From: Desulfuromonas sp. SDB
Lineage (GTDB): Bacteria; SDB-A
Assembly (NCBI GenBank): GCA_001412365.1
Contig: LKUE01000328.1
Span: 1 to 14,638 of the forward strand
Direction of reading: 5' to 3'
Length of the DNA: 14,638 nt
Shown piece by piece: positions 1,192-13,962 of this stretch (the stretch's first letter is position 1; each line of letters starts with the position of its first letter). Below the pieces are notes generated by a model. It was not told the DNA's origin. It saw only the letters and a program-made list of their open reading frames with translations, and ran no database searches. Both the position numbers and the translations under genes were made by a program.

Positions 1192-3594
1192 TCATTCTAC
1201 AAAATTGATCGGAATTACGGTTTGAGACTGAACCGGTGTTCCATTTTCGGTGGCGGGATTGAATTTTGCACCCATTGCTGCTCCCCGGGCTTCATTATCC
1301 GCAAGCGGATTTCCCGAAGATCCTACCACTTCTGCAGAAATTACTGATCCATCTGACCCTATAGTAACCCGGACAAAAGCCCTGGTTATACCCATTCCCT
1401 GAGCTGCATCGGGAACTCGAGCCTGGGGTAAACTGATGGGGGTGGGATTGGTCCTCACCACTTCTTGAGAAGTAGTGGCTACTGTATCCGGAGTTGTTGC
1501 CACTGTATCCTCCGGAGTTTCTTCTCCTACTGTTCCTCCATTGGAAGGTCCAGTAGTTACTTCCACCGGAGTTTCTTCAGTAATAGTTCCTTCAGAGGTA
1601 ACTTCGGCAGTAGTTTCTCCTCCTTCGATAACTGTTTCCGTTCCGGTTCCTACTGCTTCTTCCAACAGGGCACCGGTGGCGGCAAGCTCAATAGGCAGCT
1701 CGGTAGTATCTCCCGCTTCTTCTGCAACTTCCAGGGTTTCCGGCTCTACTTCGGGCAAGGAGTCAACAATAGTATCCACCGCTAACGTGTCTGCTTCTGC
1801 TACTACCAGAGTTTCTTCAACTACCGGCGTTTCCTCCTCCACTACCGCCACTGCAGTAGTGGGAACTCCGGTACCGGAATAATATATCTCCTGAAGGTTA
1901 AATGAAGCCAATCTGGTTTCTACCGGTTCACCTGCATAATTGATGTCAATAGCATTTAACTCCGAAGGAACAAATAGTAGAGTAAACGGCTGTTCATTAA
2001 GTAATATATTCTGCATTTCATCCCAGGCTTTTTTAGCTTCTCTGCGGTCCAGAGTAGCGGTAGCATTGATAAGGGAATCTATCTGATCTGATGAAAATGA
2101 AGCTAGATTCAACTTACCTCCGGTACCAAATACCTCTTTGGGGTGAACAGACTGCTCACCGACCAAAGCGTAGTCTAAAATATACCCGGAATATTCTGCC
2201 GTTTCTAATTTCTCCTGCACCACTCTAAGATCGGGAACTACCATGGTGGAACAGACAATTCCAATCTCCTCAAGCTGTTGACCTATCCGGTTAAGCACCA
2301 GCGCTCCAGAGCTGTTTAAGGCAACTAGTTTCAGAGTAATCACCTCTCCTTCATACATCCGGGCAAATATTGAATCGGAAGGAACGGTGTCCAATGCCAA
2401 CCTGCCCCTGGGTCTGGCTTCCAAAGTTTCCACTTTCCAGGCAGTGTAAAGCCATTTTCTGTCTTTCAATCCCAGAGAATCTAAAAGACTGTTAGCTAAA
2501 GATAAATCGTATTGGGGAGGATTTAGAGATGAATCATAAGCCCAAAACTCAGGGGAAAGCGGGGTAGCCGGTATCCTGCCTTCTCCCCTCAACAATTCCT
2601 CCACCAGTTGTTCTTTGTCAATAGCTAAACTTAAAGCATACCTAAATCTGGCATTACCCAACAAATCATCATTGGTAGCCCATCCGATTGAATAATATCT
2701 TCTGCCGGCATCATTTAGCTGGACATTAACATGCTCAAAATCAGCTAATATATCTGCATATGATGAAAATACTCCTAAAGCCAGGTCAATATTTTGATAT
2801 CTCAATGCTTCAACCATATCCCGGGAAGAACTGAATGATTTAAAAATCAAAGTATCCAGAGGAGGTTGATTCCGGTAATATTCCGGATTAGAAGTGATAA
2901 CAATTTCGTCTCCATGATAATCAGGCACCCTCCAGATAAATGCTCTGCGGGTATCTAAAATGAAAGGTCCATTGGATACAGTTTTAGATGGATTCATTCC
3001 AAATCCACTCATCACCAATGAACTGACTGAATTTACATTTACCAATAAATGTTTGGGTAGTGGGTAAATGTCGCTATCAAATAATTCAGTGGAATAAGGT
3101 TCGGTGAAATTAACTTTCACCGTGTATTTATCCAAGACTTCCACCGATGAAATCATATCGAAAAATTTTCTGAAGGGAGACTCAATCTCAGGATTATTTA
3201 ATATAAAATCAAAAGTAAATTTAACATCTTCTGCGGTTACATCTTCCCCATCCGACCATTTTATGTCTTTTCTAAGGTAATATATAATCGCACTGAGATC
3301 CTCAGAAAACTCCCATCTCTGAGCTAAAACCGGCACTAATTGCCCATTTTCATCTCTTCTTATCAATGGTAAGAATAACTGCTCAGAAATTGGATTTTTA
3401 CCAGTAAACAGAGGATGAAGGGGAACAAATAAATCGGGGATATCAGTTCCGGTAACCCCGATGATCATAGTTCCTCCCTGCTCGCCCTGAATTGGTTCCA
3501 CTTTGGAAGTGGTACAACTGCTGGCGCTTATAACAACCAGCAACAGTCCCAAGATAAATAATCTAAATTTTGAGTACTTTAGTACAGCATACAT
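1192..3594 (-). CDS. Lipoprotein with family-5 solute-binding domain (OppA/DppA-like, SBP_bac_5) fused through an acidic Thr/Glu/Val/Pro-rich linker to a C-terminal TonB_C domain
   Basis: There is a signal peptide with a probable lipobox (...VVISASS|C). The SBP_bac_5 signature region reads RWEFSEDLSAIIYYLRKDIKWSDGEDVTAEDVKFTFD. A low-complexity linker spans roughly aa 565-715. The C-terminal ~85 aa read FVRVTIGSDGSVISAEVVGSSGNPLADNEARGAAMGAKFNPATENGTPVQSQTVIPINF, which matches the TonB C-terminal consensus (G.V.v.f.I..dG.V....V..SSG...LD.aA..A.....F.P....G.PV......PI.F). A GAGGTGG SD lies upstream of the ATG at 3592..3594. Confidence 0.85.
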   Translation of the reverse strand: MYAVLKYSKFRLFILGLLLVVISASSCTTSKVEPIQGEQGGTMIIGVTGTDIPDLFVPLHPLFTGKNPISEQLFLPLIRRDENGQLVPVLAQRWEFSEDLSAIIYYLRKDIKWSDGEDVTAEDVKFTFDFILNNPEIESPFRKFFDMISSVEVLDKYTVKVNFTEPYSTELFDSDIYPLPKHLLVNVNSVSSLVMSGFGMNPSKTVSNGPFILDTRRAFIWRVPDYHGDEIVITSNPEYYRNQPPLDTLIFKSFSSSRDMVEALRYQNIDLALGVFSSYADILADFEHVNVQLNDAGRRYYSIGWATNDDLLGNARFRYALSLAIDKEQLVEELLRGEGRIPATPLSPEFWAYDSSLNPPQYDLSLANSLLDSLGLKDRKWLYTAWKVETLEARPRGRLALDTVPSDSIFARMYEGEVITLKLVALNSSGALVLNRIGQQLEEIGIVCSTMVVPDLRVVQEKLETAEYSGYILDYALVGEQSVHPKEVFGTGGKLNLASFSSDQIDSLINATATLDRREAKKAWDEMQNILLNEQPFTLLFVPSELNAIDINYAGEPVETRLASFNLQEIYYSGTGVPTTAVAVVEEETPVVEETLVVAEADTLAVDTIVDSLPEVEPETLEVAEEAGDTTELPIELAATGALLEEAVGTGTETVIEGGETTAEVTSEGTITEETPVEVTTGPSNGGTVGEETPEDTVATTPDTVATTSQEVVRTNPTPISLPQARVPDAAQGMGITRAFVRVTIGSDGSVISAEVVGSSGNPLADNEARGAAMGAKFNPATENGTPVQSQTVIPINFVE
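1452..1902 (-). repeat. Imperfectly repetitive low-complexity coding segment (Thr/Glu/Val/Ala/Pro-rich linker of the 800-aa protein)
   Basis: Degenerate repeated DNA words such as ccactgtatcc-ggagtt and ctactgtatccggagtt are visible. The translation is a T/E/V/P-rich acidic linker, and the shadow ORFs on the opposite strand are typical of low-complexity DNA. Confidence 0.55.
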
Positions 3595-4082: not shown

Positions 4083-5657
4083 TCAATTGCTCATTGAGGA
4101 GAGGAACTCTTCATTATTTTTAGTTTTGCCTAATTCTCTCTTAATCGTTTCCATTGCTTCCACCGGAGTCATGTCGCTGAGAAATTTTCTTAATACCCAC
4201 ACTCTATTTAATTCTTTTTCCGAAAGTAATAATTCTTCTCTTCTCGTACTTGATTTATTTACATCAATAGCCGGAAAAATTCTCCGGTCAGCCAGTTTTC
4301 GATCCAGAACTATTTCCATATTACCAGTACCTTTGAACTCTTCAAAAATCACTTCATCCATTCTGCTTCCAGTTTCAATTAAAGCGGTGGCTAATATAGT
4401 TAAACTCCCTCCTTCTTCAACATTTCGGGCTGCTCCAAAAAATCTCTTGGGTTTGTGCAAAGCCAGGGAATCTACTCCTCCCGACAACGTTTTTCCGGAA
4501 TGGGGTATCACTGCATTATGAGCTCTGGCTAAACGGGTAATGGAATCCAGTAAAATTACCACATCTTTTTTCATTTCAACCAATCTTCTCGCTTTTTCCA
4601 GAACAATGTGGGCAACCTGAGTATGGTGATCAGCTGGTTCATCAAAGGTTGAGCTTATCACTTCAGCGTTAACCGATCTCTGCATGTCGGTCACTTCTTC
4701 AGGTCTTTCGTCAATCAGCAAAACAATGAGAATACATTCAGGATGATTAGCGGTAATTGAATTGGCAATTTTTTGAAGGATAATGGTCTTTCCGGCTTTA
4801 GGAGGAGAAACAATTAAACCTCTTTGCCCTTTTCCAAGGGGAGCAAGTAAATCAATAATTCTCATGGAAATATCATTTTTGTCATCTCTTTCCAATTTCA
4901 GCCTTTCACTGGGATACAAGGGAGTGGAGTCATTAAACGCCAATCTTTTTTTGACAATTTCCGGTTCCTGTTCATTAACTGAAACAATGGAAACCAGGGC
5001 ATCATTTTTCTCATTAGATTTTGGAGGTCTGGCATAACCACAAACTGTATCCCCAATTTTCAAGCGATGTTTATCAATTAGGGAACGGGTGACATAAACA
5101 TCGTAAGGGCTGAGAGTGTAATTGTACTTAGGATATCTTATAAAACCATAACCATTGACAACGTCCAGAACTCCGGTGATCTTTCTGAGCACTTCTTTTT
5201 TCTTGGGAACCATTACTTTGGCTTGCTTTTCTTCAAATTCCATAGATTCAGTTTTCACCGGGGCAGGTTTCTCCGGAGAGGGGTCACTGCTGTCCTGAAT
5301 CGGTTTTTCCATTTCAGTTTGAACCGGGTCAGTGCTTTCAAACTTATCAGTTTCCTCTTGATTGGTGGGCATTTCGCTATCCGCGGATACCTCTGTTTCA
5401 GATTTATGGTTGTCTGATTCCTTATCTTGTTGATCAACAGCTTTATCTGTTTCTGATTGATCTACTTGATCATCTGGTTCGGTTTGGGCAGATGATTTTG
5501 TTGAATTTTTACCCCTGGTTTTACGAGTTGTTTTAGTTGCGGTTTTTTTCACTGAGTTTTTTTTATTTTTTTTATTATCTGCATTTACCGAAGATTCTTC
5601 TGAATTTTCTGTTAGTTCATCTTGTTCTAAAATAACATCCTTATCTACATTTTCCAT
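4083..5657 (-). CDS. rho: Transcription termination factor Rho with ~150-aa disordered acidic/Lys-rich N-terminal extension
   Basis: The OB-fold RNA-binding region reads [14 protein letters not shown]...[27 protein letters not shown]. Walker A is [17 protein letters not shown], and the C-terminal half ([17 protein letters not shown]...[11 protein letters not shown]...[45 protein letters not shown]) is collinear with E. coli Rho. The start is assigned to the ATG at 5655..5657 (MENVDK). The ORF-track GTG at 5667..5669 abuts the AGGAGA SD with zero spacing, so it is unlikely to be used. Confidence 0.93.
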
Positions 5658-5830
5658 TGATTTTAGCACTCTCCTTTAAGGTTTAATGAATTGAAATCTC
5701 ATCTCTGGCCTTAGTTTTACATTTGCTGGGATTGGTTCCAGAAATTTTAAGTTTATATTCTACTTAATTAAGTTTATAAATCAACAGCAATTTGTCAATA
5801 GGTATTTAAATATTCCTGGTTAAATTTTAT
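5658..5830 (-). promoter_or_regulatory. Long 5' leader / promoter region of rho
   Basis: A ~170-nt non-coding gap lies upstream of rho with an SD at its 3' end. In characterised bacteria rho autoregulates through Rho-dependent attenuation in its own leader (established knowledge). No specific element was verified here. Confidence 0.35.
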
Positions 5831-6598
5831 CTAGTTAAAACTCTGTTCAATATCTTCAATAATTCTTTTTAACAGGCGGTTAATGGTTGATATCTCCGTA
5901 GAATAAACTGAATCTTTGTCCAGATCATTAGATAGTATTTGCCCATATTTTTTTATCTGCAGTAAAGATTCATAAAGATTTAATTTGCTGTTATTGATCG
6001 AACCTTGTTTTATTAATTTATAAATCAATTCCCCCGGCAACTTCCATTTAGAATCATAGGATTCGCATATATAGGTATCATCATCAATATTAATTTTTCC
6101 CTGTTTTATTTGACCTGGGTCAACATTTTGGGGAAAACCGGTTAGTTCCCCGCTAATTAGTACAGTTTTTTTATCCACATAAACCAGGGGATTCTTGCTT
6201 TCCGATTTTAACTTTTCTTTCCGAATTAAGTTGTAAAAAAACAGCATAGTGGAAAATGATTCCCAAAATATGACCTGGTTATAAAAATTTGCAGTGACAA
6301 TTAGAGCATCAATGTTTTTTTTGGAATTACCGCATAAATAGAAATGATAATTTCCTCTCTCCATAATGTAGATATTATCGCTGTAGTCACGAGTATATTG
6401 GCTTAGGTTACTGGTGGGTTCAATCTCAGCAGGCAATTGGTTAAATTCATTTTCAACCAAATATAATTTATCTCCAAAAGATCTTAAATACAGTCCGACT
6501 TTGTTTATCTGATTTTGATGCAATATATCCATTAAAGATTTGATAATAGTCTTATCAAATCTCCAGAACAATTTTCGCCATAGTTTTAAATCTTGCAT
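5831..6598 (-). CDS. Hypothetical cytoplasmic protein (255 aa), AT-rich, no recognisable domain
   Basis: A 768-nt ORF that stays open in very AT-rich sequence is unlikely to occur by chance. There is no signal peptide and no SD before either candidate ATG (M1 or M23). Composition is visibly lower in GC than the flanking rho gene and SPFH operon. Confidence 0.6.
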   Translation of the reverse strand: MQDLKLWRKLFWRFDKTIIKSLMDILHQNQINKVGLYLRSFGDKLYLVENEFNQLPAEIEPTSNLSQYTRDYSDNIYIMERGNYHFYLCGNSKKNIDALIVTANFYNQVIFWESFSTMLFFYNLIRKEKLKSESKNPLVYVDKKTVLISGELTGFPQNVDPGQIKQGKINIDDDTYICESYDSKWKLPGELIYKLIKQGSINNSKLNLYESLLQIKKYGQILSNDLDKDSVYSTEISTINRLLKRIIEDIEQSFN

Positions 6599-6711
6599 TA
6601 TTATTAATTTATAGTGATGTTATCAAAAGTTTTTACTTTATTTATCACTTATTTGCGTATATATTATTTTTGTTATTATCTATCAAACTGTCAAGAAAAA
6701 CAGGAGGCAAA
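6599..6711. promoter_or_regulatory. Divergent intergenic/promoter region with inverted repeat AGTGAT-N25-ATCACT and direct TATCAAA repeats
   Basis: Seen directly: the sequence is ...tatAGTGATgttatcaaaagtttttactttatttATCACTtatttgcgtatatattatttttgttattatctatcaaactg... followed by AGGAGG at 6702..6707 and the ATG at 6712. A candidate -35/-10 pair is TTGCGT...TATTAT. It lies between minus-strand and plus-strand blocks that diverge from each other. Confidence 0.4.
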
Positions 6712-7236
6712 ATGGGAGATCTTGGAAATAAATTGAGAAATGCAGGAGATTGGCTGGCCAAGCATATCCCTGGCTTTGCAGGTTATGTAAAAAGAGAAGA
6801 ACGCCGGAGAGCGGATAAAATTTTCCGAGATTACCTAGTGGGAAAATTAAGGGATGCGAAATCCCGTCTCAGCAGAGCAACTGTAAAAATAACCGATTCC
6901 GGAGATTTAAATGCATTGAAAACTCTGTCCAGGGTTGAAGCAAAGTATGAAACCGTCACTGACCGGTTGAGATTAGCTGATTACGGCTACACCGGCTGGT
7001 TCGATACAGTTCAAATTGATTTTGATGAATTAGACAAACTTTATGAATTTGATGTTAATCTCACCATGTCCGTGGACCAGATCTGTAAAATTGCCCAGGA
7101 TATGGAAGCAGGCTCTTCTGAAGAAGCATCAAAATTAATCATGACCTTAAATCAAAGTTTGGATGAATTAGATAAAAAACTTAAACAAAGAGATAATCTA
7201 TTCATCCAGGAATTAAATTTCAACAGGAGTGAATAA
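6712..7236 (+). CDS. Hypothetical soluble, predicted alpha-helical protein (174 aa), translationally coupled to the downstream SPFH protein
   Basis: The start is assigned to the ATG at 6712 (MGDLGNK), which has AGGAGG 5 nt upstream. The ORF-track TTG extension 6670..6711 is rejected. Its stop overlaps the next start (TAATG at 7234..7238). The protein is rich in charged and coiled-coil-like residues. Confidence 0.75.
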   Translation: MGDLGNKLRNAGDWLAKHIPGFAGYVKREERRRADKIFRDYLVGKLRDAKSRLSRATVKITDSGDLNALKTLSRVEAKYETVTDRLRLADYGYTGWFDTVQIDFDELDKLYEFDVNLTMSVDQICKIAQDMEAGSSEEASKLIMTLNQSLDELDKKLKQRDNLFIQELNFNRSE

Positions 7237-8429
7237 TGGCATTTGGCATGAAATTAATGGATTTAATTGAATATCATGATCCCTCCGGGGAGGAAATGGT
7301 TCATAAAATACCGGAGCAGGGATCCGGAGAAACAAAACTGGGCAGCAGATTGATTGTACGGGAAGATCAACAGGCGGTATTTTTCAGAGACGGGCAAGCC
7401 CTGGATGTATTTGGTCCGGGAAAACATGTTCTGACCACTGCCAACCTACCCCTTCTCAACAGATTGGTGGGAGCGGCTTTTGACGGCAACACTCCATTCC
7501 GTACCGAGGTAATATTTGTCAATACTAAAACTTTCACTAACGCAAAATGGGGCACCCCTGAACCCATTCCCTTCAGGGACAAGGAGTTAAAGTTAATCAG
7601 AATAAGGGCGTTCGGCGCATATTCCTTGAGAATAATCGAAGCCCAGCTTTTTGTTAATAAAATCGTTGGCTCCCAAGGCATCTACAGAAGAGAAGAAATT
7701 GAAGATTTTCTCAGAAGTATTATTATAGCCCGGTTTACTGATTTTCTGGGAGAAGTGGCGTCCAAGGGACTGTCAATTTTTGATTTAGCCAGCAATTACG
7801 ATGAAGTTGCAGTGGGAGGAAAAGCCAGGATTCAACAGGATTTCGAAAAATATGGACTGGAGATACCTGATTTTCTGATCCAGGCAATTAGCTTACCGGA
7901 AAAAGTCCAAGAAATGATAGATGAAAGAGGAGCAGTGGAAGCGATGGGGGGCTTAGGCGGATTTACTCAATTCCAGGCAGCCAAGGCGATGAGAGAAGCA
8001 GCCAGCAATGAAGGTGGTGGTGCGGGAATGGGCATGGGTATGGGTGCAGGTTTGGGCATGGGAATGATGATGCCGGGAATGATCAATAATGCCTTCCAGC
8101 AATCTCAGCAGCAAAATCAGGGAGGGGGAGGAGCAGCGGCTATGATTAATTGTCCCCACTGTAATACTCCTGTCCCCGCAAATTCAAAATTTTGTCCGAG
8201 TTGCGGCAAACCGGTGCAAGTGGGCACACCTTGTCCTAAATGTGGTCAACCAGTGCCATCCGGCTCTAAATTTTGTCCCCACTGTGGAAATGAAATGAAA
8301 ACTGGAGCGGTGTACTGTTCTAACTGCGGTAATGAAATTCCCCAAGGTTCAAAATTTTGTCCCCATTGCGGCAATTCCATGGGACAGAATCCTCCTTCCC
8401 AAGATCAGCCTTCTCAAGATACAGAGTAA
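7236..8429 (+). CDS. SPFH/Band-7 family protein (COG4260 / Band_7_1-like) with Gly/Met-rich linker and three tandem C-terminal zinc ribbons
   Basis: The N-terminal ~250 aa (GSRLIVREDQQAVFFRDGQALDVFGPGKHVLTTANLPLL...EVIFVNTKTF...) fit the COG4260 stomatin/prohibitin-like family exemplified by B. subtilis YdjI. The linker reads GGGAGMGMGMGAGLGMGMMMPGM...QQSQQQNQGGGG. Three CPxCG-x(6-9)-SKFCPxCG modules follow. An AGGAG SD lies 6 nt upstream. Confidence 0.85.
   Translation: MAFGMKLMDLIEYHDPSGEEMVHKIPEQGSGETKLGSRLIVREDQQAVFFRDGQALDVFGPGKHVLTTANLPLLNRLVGAAFDGNTPFRTEVIFVNTKTFTNAKWGTPEPIPFRDKELKLIRIRAFGAYSLRIIEAQLFVNKIVGSQGIYRREEIEDFLRSIIIARFTDFLGEVASKGLSIFDLASNYDEVAVGGKARIQQDFEKYGLEIPDFLIQAISLPEKVQEMIDERGAVEAMGGLGGFTQFQAAKAMREAASNEGGGAGMGMGMGAGLGMGMMMPGMINNAFQQSQQQNQGGGGAAAMINCPHCNTPVPANSKFCPSCGKPVQVGTPCPKCGQPVPSGSKFCPHCGNEMKTGAVYCSNCGNEIPQGSKFCPHCGNSMGQNPPSQDQPSQDTE
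8150..8400 (+). repeat. Three tandem ~83-nt coding repeats, each encoding one double-Cys-pair zinc-ribbon module
   Basis: The DNA word (c/a)aaattttgtcc(c/g) recurs at about 8184, 8268 and 8352. The protein repeats are CPHCNTPVPANSKFCPSCG, CPKCGQPVPSGSKFCPHCG and CSNCGNEIPQGSKFCPHCG. Confidence 0.7.
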
Positions 8430-8434
8430 AAATT

Positions 8435-8950
8435 ATGCGTTTACATTTACTTTTTTTATTTATTTTTCTCATCCCCGGGCTGGTATGTTCCAGCGCCCTG
8501 GAGATATCCACAGGGGGAGTGTTAATATCCTCTGACTACTTCAGCTCCGGACAGACTATTGACTTCAAATACAGTCATTCCCTTAATTTATTGGGATTCC
8601 AACCTCTGGCTAAATTTTCCTTTATCCAGGCTCAGGGTTCTCAAAGACCGGATCTTCAGTTGCATTCCTATCAATTTTACACCGGCTTGAAAAGAAATTT
8701 GTTCAATCCCACTCCCCGAAGTGAAATTGTATTTTCACTCTTACCAGGATTAAGCCATACTACCATATCCACTGAGACAGCCAGTGAAAGTTCAATAATT
8801 CCGTGGGTTGGTTGTGCCCTGGGCTATCAGTTTAAATTTTTTGAACCAGTTAAACTGGTTGCGGACATCGCTGGCAATTATTCTCTGGATAAAAGCAACA
8901 CCTTATTTTTCGGACTGACTCTGGGAATTGAATTAAACAAAGGATTTTAA
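8435..8950 (+). CDS. Small outer-membrane beta-barrel protein (171 aa; OmpW/OMP_b-brl-like), secreted
   Basis: The start is assigned to the ATG at 8435 (MRLHLLFLFIFLIPGLVCSSA), a signal peptide lying 5 nt after the upstream stop. The ORF-track extension back to 8357 overlaps the previous gene out of frame. The protein shows alternating hydrophobic beta-strand patterns and a C-terminal ...GIELNKGF ending in Phe, which is the classic OMP C-terminal signature. Confidence 0.7.
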   Translation: MRLHLLFLFIFLIPGLVCSSALEISTGGVLISSDYFSSGQTIDFKYSHSLNLLGFQPLAKFSFIQAQGSQRPDLQLHSYQFYTGLKRNLFNPTPRSEIVFSLLPGLSHTTISTETASESSIIPWVGCALGYQFKFFEPVKLVADIAGNYSLDKSNTLFFGLTLGIELNKGF

Positions 8951-9607
8951 ATGTTGAGAATTATCTTAATCATATCATCACTGGCAGTAATAGTTTTATC
9001 AGCAGGATGCCAGAGGGAAACCAACTTATTCAGGATAAACGAGGACTATTTCCCCACTCCGGATACCGGAAGTTATTGGACTTATTCCAACCTGCAAACT
9101 AATGACCACATTACTGTCTCCGTAAATGAAATTGATTTATTTTATGAAGGTAGATACTGTTATCAATGGATCTGGAATAATGAAAATATATACCTGTGGA
9201 AAGATGACAATAATATATATTCCCATCAATTAAGACAGAAATACTTCGGAGGAGACGGCTGGGATGTTGAAAACCGGTGGGCTCCTCTGTTCAGATTGCC
9301 ATTTTTAGACGGGGATCAATGGCAGGATAATTTTCATAATTCAATTAATATTTTGGGAGATATTTTTGAAATTGAAGTAAATACTGAAGTTAAAATTAGT
9401 TTACAGGGAGATGTAACTACCCCCGCCAGTAATTTTTCCAATTGTTATAAAATTACCTATATCCGCAATATACAAGAACAATCAGCATTATTAGGCAATT
9501 TAAATGAAGCTGATTCTGTTTATTACTGGTTAGCCCCTGGTGTGGGAATAGTAAAATTCCAAGACAGTACCGGAGTTTACAGTTTAACTGACTATCAATT
9601 TAATTAA
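8951..9607 (+). CDS. Lipoprotein, hypothetical (218 aa)
   Basis: There is a signal peptide with lipobox LSAG|C. The ATG immediately follows the upstream TAA. The protein is Trp/Tyr/Asn-rich with no recognised domain. Confidence 0.75.
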   Translation: MLRIILIISSLAVIVLSAGCQRETNLFRINEDYFPTPDTGSYWTYSNLQTNDHITVSVNEIDLFYEGRYCYQWIWNNENIYLWKDDNNIYSHQLRQKYFGGDGWDVENRWAPLFRLPFLDGDQWQDNFHNSINILGDIFEIEVNTEVKISLQGDVTTPASNFSNCYKITYIRNIQEQSALLGNLNEADSVYYWLAPGVGIVKFQDSTGVYSLTDYQFN

Positions 9608-13149: not shown

Positions 13150-13962
13150 ATGAGAATTAAAATTGCATGCTTATTATTAATTATTATCACGGTATCTCTT
13201 GTAGCTGAGGTGCCGACAAGGATATTGACATTTGAAACCGGGTATATTTTACCTCATCGCCATTCAAAAATCGGGATTGGAGATGCCGCAGTGGGATTAT
13301 ACGATTATTTCCAAATTGGTTCTAACACCACTATGGATATGATCCTGGTTCCCAATATCAAGGTAAAAGCTGGATACTACTTCGGGGAAAAATTCCCCCT
13401 TTCCATTGCCATGGGCGGTCTTTACTGGGATTTTCTGGGATTTTCCCCCCTGGTTGCCCAGTCCTCATCTGAACTGCTCACTGACGAATTAACCGGAACT
13501 CTGGCGGGTAAACTTTACGGATATTCATTTTACTGGTCCGCCAGCTACGGAGTGGTTCCGGGATTAGCAGACGTTCATATTAACTACAAAGTAGATCATA
13601 CCGTATCCGATATCAGAGGTATTGGTGATTTCACCATTGATCCCCGTGAATATGTAGATAACACTGACATCTACATCGTCAGCGCAGAAGTGTGGGGAAA
13701 CAACAAAGGGTGGCACCATACCATGACTGCAGGAAATAATTTAACTGCCGGTTTATTCAATTTCTATACCGAACTTGGTTATGATTTTGAGATGGAAAAA
13801 CTTAAATGGGGAATTGGATTAGGAGTTCCCGCGGGAGGCAACGGAGAAATTCTGTTGGGAGTTGTCGGTCCCGGAGTAGAGTTTGAAGATATAAATTCCG
13901 GAGTCATTCCGGTTCTAGCAGCCACATGGACCTTTGGCTACGGGGAGGAAGAAAATGAATAG
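13150..13962 (+). CDS. Secreted beta-rich protein, possible outer-membrane beta-barrel (270 aa), hypothetical
   Basis: A GAGGTGA SD lies 5 nt upstream. The signal peptide reads MRIKIACLLLIIITVSLVA. The protein is Gly/aromatic-rich with alternating strand patterns (KLKWGIGLGV, VIPVLAATWTFGYG) and ends in an acidic GEEENE tail rather than a terminal Phe. Confidence 0.65.
   Translation: MRIKIACLLLIIITVSLVAEVPTRILTFETGYILPHRHSKIGIGDAAVGLYDYFQIGSNTTMDMILVPNIKVKAGYYFGEKFPLSIAMGGLYWDFLGFSPLVAQSSSELLTDELTGTLAGKLYGYSFYWSASYGVVPGLADVHINYKVDHTVSDIRGIGDFTIDPREYVDNTDIYIVSAEVWGNNKGWHHTMTAGNNLTAGLFNFYTELGYDFEMEKLKWGIGLGVPAGGNGEILLGVVGPGVEFEDINSGVIPVLAATWTFGYGEEENE

What the first reader, a model, noticed from the sequence alone, without database searches (positions are those of the whole stretch)
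6712..8429. Translationally coupled pair: unknown 174-aa helical protein + SPFH(COG4260) protein bearing a Gly/Met-repeat linker and triple zinc ribbon
The SPFH/Band-7 protein belongs to the COG4260 subgroup exemplified by B. subtilis YdjI. That protein works with a PspA/IM30-type membrane-stress protein and zinc-ribbon membrane partners (established knowledge).

Here the zinc ribbons are fused in triplicate onto the SPFH protein itself. The partner encoded just upstream overlaps it by TAATG, is soluble and helical, and shows no resemblance to PspA that I can see. It could be a new partner/adaptor family for SPFH scaffolds.

The pair heads a contiguous run of envelope-protein genes, which suggests a membrane-microdomain or envelope-stress module.
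Basis: partly seen in the sequence, partly recalled or inferred. Interest (0 to 1): 0.6.

Follow-up and report, generated by a model that had tools for sequence, protein, structure and literature searches.

The report
Conserved helical partner of SPFH scaffold
A small, unnamed helical protein and an ordinary YdjI-type SPFH/zinc-ribbon membrane-scaffold protein form a tightly coupled two-gene unit; the unit recurs across many bacterial phyla and some archaea, sometimes with the membrane-repair protein PspA between the two genes.

Summary
Gene A (6712-7236, 174 aa) and gene B (7236-8429, 397 aa) overlap in TAATG. B has Band_7_1 (1e-62), a Gly/Met-rich linker and three zinc ribbons.

- The SPFH + low-complexity + zinc-ribbon fusion is not special. 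B. subtilis YdjI has it, and all 120 best homologues have it (85 with three ribbons).
- The downstream envelope genes are shared by only 4-5 close relatives among 172 loci.

The central idea holds and is stronger than proposed.
- A belongs to a large, unannotated family: 2016 representative clusters, no Pfam model, and only a sub-threshold hit to NCBIfam LIMLP_15305.
- A lies directly upstream of a B-type gene in 63 of 80 genomes.
- Sampling from B instead, 53 of 65 metagenome loci have A upstream. The flanking genes differ across many phyla, including archaea.
- Operon variants insert DUF4178 (also fused to A), PspA, or a zinc-ribbon-TM-Toastrack protein between A and B.

Best reading: A is a cytoplasmic four-helix adaptor or regulator of YdjI-type SPFH scaffolds in the phage-shock/ESCRT-III membrane-stress network. 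Physical interaction is inferred, not shown.

The parts
6703..6707 (+). Shine-Dalgarno-like GGAGG, 4 nt before the ATG of gene A
   Evidence: Read directly from the sequence.
6712..7236 (+). Gene A. It encodes a 174-aa soluble all-helical protein. It belongs to a large uncharacterised family that is distantly related to NCBIfam NF047596, the LIMLP_15305 family.
   Evidence: The translation is. No Pfam family matches. NF047596 matches at E 9.2e-12, 45 bits, against a cutoff of 210. The family has 2016 cluster representatives. The AlphaFold2 model has pLDDT 77.8 with helices at 3-18, 28-63, 66-87, 104-133 and 136-167. Invariant residues across 70 members are P20 G21 R32 D35 R39 G92 D114 R160.
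6973..7005 (+). Conserved loop motif L-A-D-Y-G-Y-T-G-W-F-D (residues 88-98) between helices 2 and 3 of A. This is the signature of the family.
   Evidence: Alignments A1 and A3 show A89 and G95 nearly invariant and G92 invariant. Model confidence is low here: pLDDT for the residue 91-100 block is 52.
7225..7229 (+). AGGAG ribosome-binding site for gene B, lying inside the 3' end of gene A
   Evidence: Read directly from the sequence.
7234..7238 (+). TAATG stop/start overlap between A and B, indicating translational coupling
   Evidence: Read from the sequence. The same -1 or -4 overlap occurs in 26 of 122 A+B loci, and 60 of 122 have at most 30 nt between the stop of A and the first aligned residue of B.
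7236..8429 (+). Gene B. It encodes a 397-aa YdjI-type SPFH protein with the order Band_7_1, Gly/Met-rich linker, three zinc ribbons.
   Evidence: Domain assignments come from Pfam. The AlphaFold2 model has pLDDT 80.2. Foldseek matches stomatin, HflK/C, erlin, prohibitin, flotillin and QmcA at E down to 1.9e-10. No transmembrane segment is predicted; the Kyte-Doolittle maximum is 1.10.
7326..7940 (+). SPFH (Band_7_1) domain of B, residues 31-235
   Evidence: PF13421 at E 1.1e-62 and PF01145 at E 3.2e-15.
8001..8147 (+). Gly/Met/Ala-rich linker of B. It contains the conserved motif GAG-G-GAGLGMGMMMPGM.
   Evidence: The motif is present in essentially all of the 120 best homologues. Gly columns G266, G268, G270, G272, G274 and G276 are invariant. 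AlphaFold2 pLDDT is below 50 at 264-279 and 288-300.
8151..8378 (+). Three tandem C4 zinc ribbons of B, residues 306-381
   Evidence: Zn_Ribbon_1 matches in 3 stretches and DZR in 2. The Cys columns are invariant or nearly invariant.

Best explanation
The locus is the minimal two-gene form of a widespread cytoplasmic module that acts at the membrane.

Gene B is an ordinary member of the YdjI (SamI) branch of SPFH/Band_7_1 proteins. It has no membrane anchor. It consists of an SPFH domain, a short helical stalk, a conserved Gly/Met-rich segment and C-terminal zinc ribbons. By analogy with B. subtilis YdjI, it probably oligomerises under the cytoplasmic membrane. There it would organise or recruit membrane-stress proteins, with PspA/ESCRT-III where that protein is present.

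Gene A is a four-helix-bundle protein from a large family that nobody has characterised. Its invariant residues are the PGFxGY turn, R32/D35/R39, the ADYGYxGxFD loop, Y111/D114 and R160. By helix topology they all fall at one pole of the bundle, which I read as a binding surface.

A and B are made from one mRNA in coupled translation. I infer that they form a stoichiometric complex in which A acts as an adaptor or assembly regulator of the SPFH scaffold. In longer operons the same A protein is fused to, or followed by, DUF4178, PspA or a zinc-ribbon-TM-Toastrack sensor. This suggests that A is the piece linking the SPFH scaffold to those partners.

Shown: domain identities, family size, gene-order conservation, operon variants and the absence of PspA homology.
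Inferred: physical A-B binding, membrane localisation and a stress function.
For: Identity of B:
- Band_7_1 at 211.9 bits plus three zinc ribbons.
- SPFH fold confirmed by an AlphaFold2 model and Foldseek hits to stomatin and HflK/C.
- No transmembrane segment.
- The same architecture is described for YdjI in PMC8581546 and PMC11237479.

The A family:
- 2016, 1237 and 255 representative clusters at E<=1e-3, 1e-10 and 1e-30.
- All source names are 'hypothetical protein'.

Linkage of A and B:
- 63 of 80 species-level genome loci have B directly downstream of A.
- Starting from B instead, 53 of 65 testable metagenome loci have A upstream on the same strand.
- Homologues at 31-38% identity keep the pair while all flanking genes differ.
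- The pair occurs in a contig labelled Thermoplasmata archaeon, in a 1.69-Mb contig whose neighbouring genes look archaeal, and in a MAG labelled Firmicutes.
- Spacing is tight: 60 of 122 loci have <=30 nt, and 26 have overlapping stop and start codons.

Link to the phage-shock network:
- A-DUF4178 fusion | PspA (PF04012, 7.7e-49) | B in L030, L109 and L165; L126, L141 and L148 also carry PspA next to B.
- A | DUF4178 | B in Armatimonadota.
- A | ZnR-TM-Toastrack | B in L093, L101 and L113, confirmed by Pfam; L094, L100 and L108 carry a look-alike gene between A and B that was not scanned.
- A fusion protein of A with DUF4178, P0046.

Conserved pole of A: the positions of invariant columns mapped on the helix boundaries of the model.
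Against: - No direct evidence exists that A binds B. A complex prediction could not be run.
- 17 of 80 A loci lack B within 5 kb. Two of these are truncated. The rest are mostly Anaerolineae, where A precedes xanthine-dehydrogenase-type genes.
- 12 of 65 B loci lack A, so neither protein strictly needs a neighbouring copy of the other.
- No PspA_IM30 gene lies in the 25 kb of the window's own contig that was inspected.
- No membrane anchor is encoded in the pair, so the membrane association of this minimal form is conjecture.
- The A model has only moderate confidence, and the signature loop is poorly modelled.
Confidence: 0.6

Rival explanations
1. A and B are co-transcribed and co-regulated, but they do not form a complex. 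A would be an independent cytoplasmic protein, for example a sensor, a small-ligand binder or a regulator. It would act in the same stress response, and in some lineages it would serve other pathways.
For: A occurs without B next to redox-enzyme genes in about 15 Anaerolineae genomes. B occurs without A in 12 of 65 loci. The conserved polar and aromatic cluster in A (R32, D35, R39, D90, Y93, Y111, D114, R160) could equally be a ligand pocket.
Against: Stop/start overlaps and very short spacers recur across phyla. Gene order (A first, then B) is fixed. A is also fused to DUF4178, another member of the same operon set. These are the usual signatures of physically interacting products.
Confidence: 0.2
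2. The pair would be the cytoplasmic head of a dedicated envelope-stress or microdomain operon. That operon would also include the downstream secreted, lipoprotein, transporter and OmpA-like genes.
For: In the window the next gene starts 5 nt after B. The following genes abut or overlap, and no + strand terminator-like site was found. The same order is kept in relatives L001 and L008-L010, and partly in L088.
Against: Homologues of the flanking genes are present in only 4-5 of 172 loci that carry A and/or B. All more distant pairs have unrelated neighbours. The co-directional string in the window's contig continues into housekeeping genes such as AIRS, HSP20, Lon, AspRS and deformylase. That pattern is typical of compact-genome gene strings and not of a functional operon.
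Confidence: 0.1
3. A is a highly diverged PspA/IM30/ESCRT-III-type polymer. It would replace PspA in the minimal operon.
For: A occupies the position just upstream of a YdjI-type gene, as pspA does in B. subtilis. It is all-helical and of comparable size.
Confidence: 0.05
4. The pair is an anti-phage defence or mobile-element cargo module.
For: It is a small two-gene cassette with variable flanks in many lineages.
Against: Neither protein nor the neighbours match any PADLOC model. The neighbours are housekeeping genes such as Rho, L31 and tRNA synthetases. No integrase or defence-island context was seen.
Confidence: 0.03

Closest known systems
B. subtilis PspA-YdjGHI (SamGHI) system. YdjI/SamI is a soluble SPFH protein that links PspA to the membrane (Scholz et al. 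2021, PMC8581546; Baur et al. 2026 preprint, 10.64898/2026.02.06.704340).
   Same: B has the YdjI architecture. [quoted passage not shown] Relatives of this pair sit in operons with a genuine PspA.
   Different: The window encodes no PspA, no YdjG-like partner (zinc ribbon plus TM) and no YdjH-like partner (TPM plus TM) in the pair or in 25 kb of its contig. The conserved neighbour is instead the soluble helical protein A, which has no counterpart in the B. subtilis operon. B has three ribbons, not one.
PSP-associated gene neighbourhoods catalogued by Ravi et al. 2024 (PMC11237479), including band-7+ZnR, DUF4178 and Toastrack as partners of PspA
   Same: The operon variants found here use exactly those parts: DUF4178, PspA, ZnR-TM-Toastrack and band-7+ZnR.
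   Different: The A family is not among the described partners. PspAA has three helices plus a four-stranded sheet. PspAB, HAAS, SHOCT and CesT/Tir are also different. A has no Pfam model, so Pfam-based neighbourhood surveys could not label it. Most A-B pairs have no PspA next to them.
NCBIfam NF047596 'LIMLP_15305 family protein' (a name-only model for Leptospira)
   Same: A aligns to positions 24-174 of the 175-position model at E 9.2e-12. 69 of 70 diverse family members hit it, so the homology is clear.
   Different: The score is 45 bits against the equivalog cutoff of 210, so A is not a member of that narrow family. The model carries no functional information. The only paper found that mentions the locus tag lists it as a neighbour of a small RNA (PMC7567364).
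SPFH cage formers with dedicated partners: HflK/C-FtsH, QmcA-YbbJ (NfeD), stomatin and flotillin
   Same: They share the SPFH fold (Foldseek E 1e-10 to 1e-6). They also share the general logic of an SPFH scaffold encoded next to a small dedicated partner.
   Different: Those proteins have N-terminal membrane anchors and long coiled-coil walls. B has neither; only helices 222-236 and 240-260 follow the domain. Their partners, NfeD and FtsH, are unrelated to A.
Archaeal 'Meth_adaptin' ESCRT loci with an SPFH + coiled-coil + zinc-ribbon protein (Makarova et al. 2024, PMC10936438)
   Same: An SPFH-zinc-ribbon protein is linked by context to ESCRT-III-type machinery. The A-B pair also occurs in contigs labelled or appearing archaeal.
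   Different: No Vps4, adaptin or ESCRT genes were seen next to the archaeal A-B pairs. A is not mentioned in that work.

Membership tests
Band_7_1 / COG4260, YdjI-type SPFH proteins (gene B) | Match to Pfam PF13421 above the gathering score | tested here: met
   211.9 bits against a cutoff of 24, E 1.1e-62, residues 31-235.
Band_7_1 / COG4260, YdjI-type SPFH proteins (gene B) | SPFH fold | tested here: met
   The AlphaFold2 model has pLDDT 80.2. Foldseek probability is 1.00 to stomatin, HflK/C, erlin, prohibitin, flotillin and QmcA.
Band_7_1 / COG4260, YdjI-type SPFH proteins (gene B) | No membrane anchor; a soluble protein, unlike FloA/FloT/HflKC | tested here: met
   The maximum Kyte-Doolittle 19-residue hydropathy is 1.10, in the Gly/Met segment, with no TM-grade segment. 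YdjI is described as soluble in PMC8581546.
Band_7_1 / COG4260, YdjI-type SPFH proteins (gene B) | C-terminal low-complexity region followed by zinc ribbon(s) | tested here: met
   Six CxxC motifs and Zn_Ribbon_1 in 3 stretches. The feature is described for YdjI. 120 of 120 homologues have ribbons.
Band_7_1 / COG4260, YdjI-type SPFH proteins (gene B) | Encoded with PspA and the membrane anchors YdjG/YdjH | tested here: not met
   The pair and 25 kb of the contig contain no PspA_IM30, TPM or ZnR-TM gene. PspA is present in a minority of related operons.
Band_7_1 / COG4260, YdjI-type SPFH proteins (gene B) | Recruits PspA to membrane foci under stress | not testable with these tools
   This needs microscopy and genetics.
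PspA / IM30 / ESCRT-III (considered for gene A) | Sequence-profile similarity to PF04012 | tested here: not met
   No PF04012 hit for A or for any of 70 family members at E<=1. hhalign against operon PspAs gives probability 2.9%.
PspA / IM30 / ESCRT-III (considered for gene A) | ESCRT-III-like long helical hairpin fold | tested here: not met
NCBIfam NF047596 LIMLP_15305 family (gene A) | Score at or above the curated equivalog cutoff (210 bits) | tested here: not met
   45.2 bits, E 9.2e-12, covering model positions 24-174 of 175. A is homologous but lies outside the narrow family.
A-family + YdjI-type SPFH gene pair (defined here) | A-family gene directly upstream of, and co-directional with, a Band_7_1+ZnR gene | tested here: met
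   The window has a TAATG overlap. The pair is found in 63 of 80 A-seeded loci and 53 of 65 B-seeded loci.
A-family + YdjI-type SPFH gene pair (defined here) | Signature motifs of A: PGFxGY, RRxxDxxxR, ADYGYxGxFD, LYxFD and a late invariant Arg | tested here: met
   All are present in the window protein (I19-Y25, R32/D35/R39, A89-D98, L110-D114, R160). They are invariant or nearly invariant in A1 and A3.
A-family + YdjI-type SPFH gene pair (defined here) | Physical A-B complex | not testable with these tools
73 non-redundant A+B pairs were assembled for a paired alignment but could not be submitted.

The most novel reading that the evidence does not exclude
The A family is an unrecognised, ancient core subunit of YdjI-type SPFH assemblies, shared by bacteria and archaea. 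Its conserved pole would dock onto the SPFH oligomer and control its assembly at the membrane. Through fusion or adjacency to DUF4178, PspA and Toastrack sensors, it would be the physical coupler between SPFH scaffolds and ESCRT-III-type membrane repair. In the minimal A-B form, as in this window, the two proteins alone would make a PspA-independent membrane-surveillance unit. Anchoring would come from the amphipathic N-terminus of A and/or the conserved Gly/Met segment of B.
Probability: 0.3. Interest if true: 0.65.

Novelty: new variant of a known kind. Interest (0 to 1): 0.5.

Why it matters
SPFH proteins and PspA/ESCRT-III are central to membrane organisation and repair in all domains of life. 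How anchor-less SPFH proteins of the YdjI type are recruited and regulated is known only for B. subtilis, where YdjG and YdjH do the job.

Outside Firmicutes, the commonest neighbour of this SPFH subfamily is a different, soluble four-helix protein. It has no Pfam model and no literature, so domain-based neighbourhood surveys could not see it. The pair is small, widespread (many phyla, including archaea) and tightly coupled. It therefore offers a simple, testable system for asking how SPFH scaffolds are assembled and linked to PspA. It also supplies a candidate family for a new domain definition.

The SPFH-zinc-ribbon protein itself is ordinary.

Tried and rejected
2. A matching any solved structure by sequence. 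Nothing was found for the single sequence or for the 70-member profile; the best hit was PhoU at E 0.025 over 35 residues.
3. A as PspAA. Rejected because PspAA has a four-stranded sheet, while A is all-helical.
4. Natural A-B fusions. The long A-family proteins turned out to be A plus disordered tails, or A plus DUF4178, and not A plus SPFH.
5. Defence system. No PADLOC hit.
6. Envelope operon. The flanking genes are not conserved.
7. PspA elsewhere on the window's contig. None in the 25 kb inspected.
8. Foldseek against AFDB50. The library was unavailable.
9. Leptospira context of LIMLP_15305. The only paper gives no annotation.
10. Complex prediction of A+B with a linker.
11. Terminator and promoter scans gave nothing decisive.
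Full report
**1. What is in the sequence**

- Gene A runs 6712-7236 and encodes 174 aa. GGAGG lies at 6703-6707.
- Gene B runs 7236-8429 and encodes 397 aa. Its AGGAG lies at 7225-7229, inside the end of A.
- The TAA of A and the ATG of B share one base, giving TAATG.

B matches Pfam Band_7_1 (PF13421) at E 1.1e-62 over residues 31-235. It matches Zn_Ribbon_1 three times and DZR twice. Six CxxC motifs make three C4 ribbons between residues 306 and 381. The 55-residue stretch before them is 62% Gly, Met and Ala.

A has no Pfam family and no hydrophobic segment. Its AlphaFold2 model is all-helical (pLDDT 77.8, pTM 0.73). It has a short N-terminal helix and four long helices at 28-63, 66-87, 104-133 and 136-167.

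**2. Gene B is an ordinary YdjI-type SPFH protein**

- An AlphaFold2 model (pLDDT 80.2) matches stomatin, HflK/C, erlin, prohibitin, flotillin and QmcA with Foldseek probability 1.00.
- B lacks the N-terminal anchor and the long coiled coil of those cage formers.
It is not.
  - Scholz et al. [quoted passage not shown]
  - Ravi et al. 2024 describe it as band-7 plus a C-terminal zinc ribbon (PMC11237479).
- More than 4181 database proteins match B. All 120 best carry Band_7_1 plus ribbons.
- Among those 120, 85 have six CxxC motifs, 25 have four and 10 have five. The triple ribbon is the majority state of this subfamily.
- The Gly/Met stretch is not filler. The motif GAGxGxGAGLGMGMMMPGM recurs in almost all homologues, with invariant glycine columns.
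- That motif is not hydrophobic enough for a transmembrane helix, and it is modelled with pLDDT below 50. Its role is unknown. A membrane-interface anchor is my guess.

**3. Gene A belongs to a large, unannotated family**

- The word-indexed search found only 14 relatives.
- An exhaustive profile search of 1.84 billion cluster representatives found 2016 at E<=1e-3, 1237 at E<=1e-10 and 255 at E<=1e-30. Most are stand-alone proteins of about 170 aa.
- Every source name is 'hypothetical protein'.
- The only curated model that sees the family is NCBIfam NF047596, the 'LIMLP_15305 family protein' of Leptospira.
  - The window protein scores 45 bits against a cutoff of 210.
  - 69 of 70 diverse members hit the model, and none of these matches was stronger than E 3.6e-21.
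  - That model is therefore a narrow branch of the same superfamily and carries no functional information.
- Invariant residues across 70 members are P20, G21, R32, D35, R39, G92, D114 and R160. Nearly invariant are G24, Y25, E29, A89, G95, F97, L107 and Y111.
- Mapped on the helix boundaries of the model, all of these lie at one end of an up-down-up-down bundle. That end comprises the start of helix 1, the helix 2-3 loop, the start of helix 3 and the end of helix 4.
- I read this as one conserved binding pole.

**4. A is not PspA**

- Profile-profile comparison of the A family with PspA sequences taken from related operons gives probability 2.9%.
- No member hits PF04012, even at E<=1.
- A profile search of PDB sequences finds nothing.
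- A is also not PspAA, which contains a beta-sheet.

**5. The pair is a conserved module**

Starting from A:
- A scan of one genome per species found 174 genomes with the family.
- The 80 loci kept are labelled WOR-3, Armatimonadota/Zipacnadia, Chloroflexota, Acidobacteriota, Fermentibacteria/Aegiribacteria, Spirochaetota, Hyd24-12, WS1 and others.
- In 63 of the 80 a B-type SPFH gene follows on the same strand.

Starting from B, which is unbiased with respect to A:
- A metagenome scan gave 80 loci.
- 53 of the 65 loci with at least 600 nt of upstream sequence carry an A gene upstream on the same strand.

Further support:
- Homologues at only 31-38% identity keep the pair while every flanking gene differs.
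- The pair also occurs in a contig labelled Thermoplasmata archaeon, in a 1.69-Mb contig whose neighbouring genes look archaeal, and in a MAG labelled Firmicutes.
- Of 122 loci with both genes, 60 have at most 30 nt between the stop of A and the first aligned residue of B. In 26 the start codon overlaps the stop by 1 or 4 nt, as in the window.

**6. Operon variants tie the pair to the phage-shock network**

- In several Armatimonadota a DUF4178 gene lies between A and B.
- In L030, L109 and L165, A is fused to DUF4178 and a genuine PspA (PF04012, E 7.7e-49) lies between it and B. L126, L141 and L148 also carry PspA immediately upstream of B.
- P0046 is another A-DUF4178 fusion.
- In a group of soil-type metagenome contigs, a protein with an N-terminal zinc ribbon, one TM helix and a Toastrack (DUF4097) domain lies between A and B. 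Pfam confirms this in L093, L101 and L113. L094, L100 and L108 have a look-alike gene that I did not scan.
- PspA, DUF4178, Toastrack and band-7+ZnR are all listed as PSP-system partners by Ravi et al.. A is not.
- An SPFH-coiled-coil-zinc-ribbon protein is also a component of some archaeal ESCRT loci (PMC10936438).

**7. What does not hold**

The 'run of envelope genes' is real in the window: the next gene starts 5 nt after B, and no + strand terminator was found. It is clade-specific, however. Homologues of the flanking genes occur in only 4-5 close relatives of 172 loci. On the window's own contig the co-directional string continues into housekeeping genes.

No PspA gene lies within the 25 kb of that contig that I could read.

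There are exceptions to the pairing. About 15 Anaerolineae genomes have A directly upstream of xanthine-dehydrogenase-type genes with no SPFH gene nearby. Twelve B-seeded loci lack A. No PADLOC defence model matches.

**8. Most likely mechanism**

B, like YdjI, would form an oligomeric scaffold beneath the membrane. A is made in coupled translation with it. A would bind B through its conserved pole and act as an adaptor or assembly regulator. In longer operons it would bridge to DUF4178, PspA or a Toastrack sensor.

The identities, the family size, the linkage and the operon variants are shown. Binding, localisation and stress function are inferred. I put this at about 0.6.

The main rival is co-regulation without a complex (0.2). 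The envelope-operon reading (0.1), a cryptic PspA (0.05) and a defence system (0.03) are poorly supported.

**9. Novelty and score**

B is a new member of a well-known kind. The A family as the commonest partner of YdjI-type SPFH proteins outside Firmicutes appears to be undescribed in the literature I could search. It would have been invisible to Pfam-based surveys.

I rate the locus a new variant of a known kind, with interest 0.5. It is a solid, testable lead for people working on SPFH and PSP systems. It rests on genomic context only and fits comfortably within the known logic of these systems.

Noticed in passing
L027, L036, L038, L041, L047, L049, L058, L064, L071, L073, L076, L078, L079, L084 (A gene at about 5001-5525 in most of them): In many Anaerolineae genomes the A-family gene has no SPFH neighbour. 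It sits directly upstream of a conserved set of three genes. These are a FAD_binding_5/CO_deh_flav_C/Fer2_2 fusion, a 139-aa membrane protein and a ~740-aa molybdopterin-type subunit. This may be a second context for the family, or it may be synteny within one class.
   Followed up: partly
L093 1762-2967, L101 688-1998 and 2002-2973, L113 1741-2955: In soil-type metagenome contigs, proteins with an N-terminal zinc ribbon, a Pro-rich linker, one TM helix and a Toastrack (DUF4097) domain are inserted between A and the SPFH gene. This is reminiscent of the YdjG role in B. subtilis.
   Followed up: partly
P0084, P0086, P0092, P0118, P0079, P0074, P0100 (proteins): Some A-family proteins carry disordered tails of roughly 180-280 aa, rich in Gly, Pro, Ser and Thr, after the helical domain. 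No Pfam domain is present in these tails.
   Followed up: partly
window 8001-8147 (B residues about 256-304): The Gly/Met-rich 'linker' is a conserved sequence motif (GAGxGxGAGLGMGMMMPGM) with invariant Gly columns across the subfamily. It is not random low complexity, and it may be a membrane-interface element.
   Followed up: partly
window 4083-5669 (-): Rho termination factor with an N-terminal extension of about 160 aa. The extension is highly charged and low in complexity (rich in Lys, Glu, Ser, Asp and Thr) and precedes the Rho_RNA_bind domain.
   Followed up: no
window 1192-3594 (-): An 800-aa protein that joins an SBP_bac_5 solute-binding domain to a C-terminal TonB_C domain through a long acidic linker rich in Thr, Glu and Val. 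The same architecture is present in relative L001.
   Followed up: no
window 5831-6598 (-): A divergently transcribed 255-aa protein with no Pfam, NCBIfam or PADLOC match. It is kept at the same position only in the close relatives L001 and L008-L010 (25-31% identity).
   Followed up: partly
whole window (protein P0001): The source record is labelled 'Desulfuromonas sp. SDB', but the closest relatives of both genes and of the flanks are candidate division WOR-3 MAGs. The taxonomic label of the bin looks doubtful.
   Followed up: no
window 8435-8950, 8951-9607, 13150-13962: Three secreted or lipoproteins without family assignment. The first is 171 aa, has a signal peptide and ends in Phe like an outer-membrane beta-barrel protein. 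The second is 218 aa, has a lipobox and a weak DUF3108_like hit. The third is 270 aa. All three are conserved only in the same narrow clade.
   Followed up: partly
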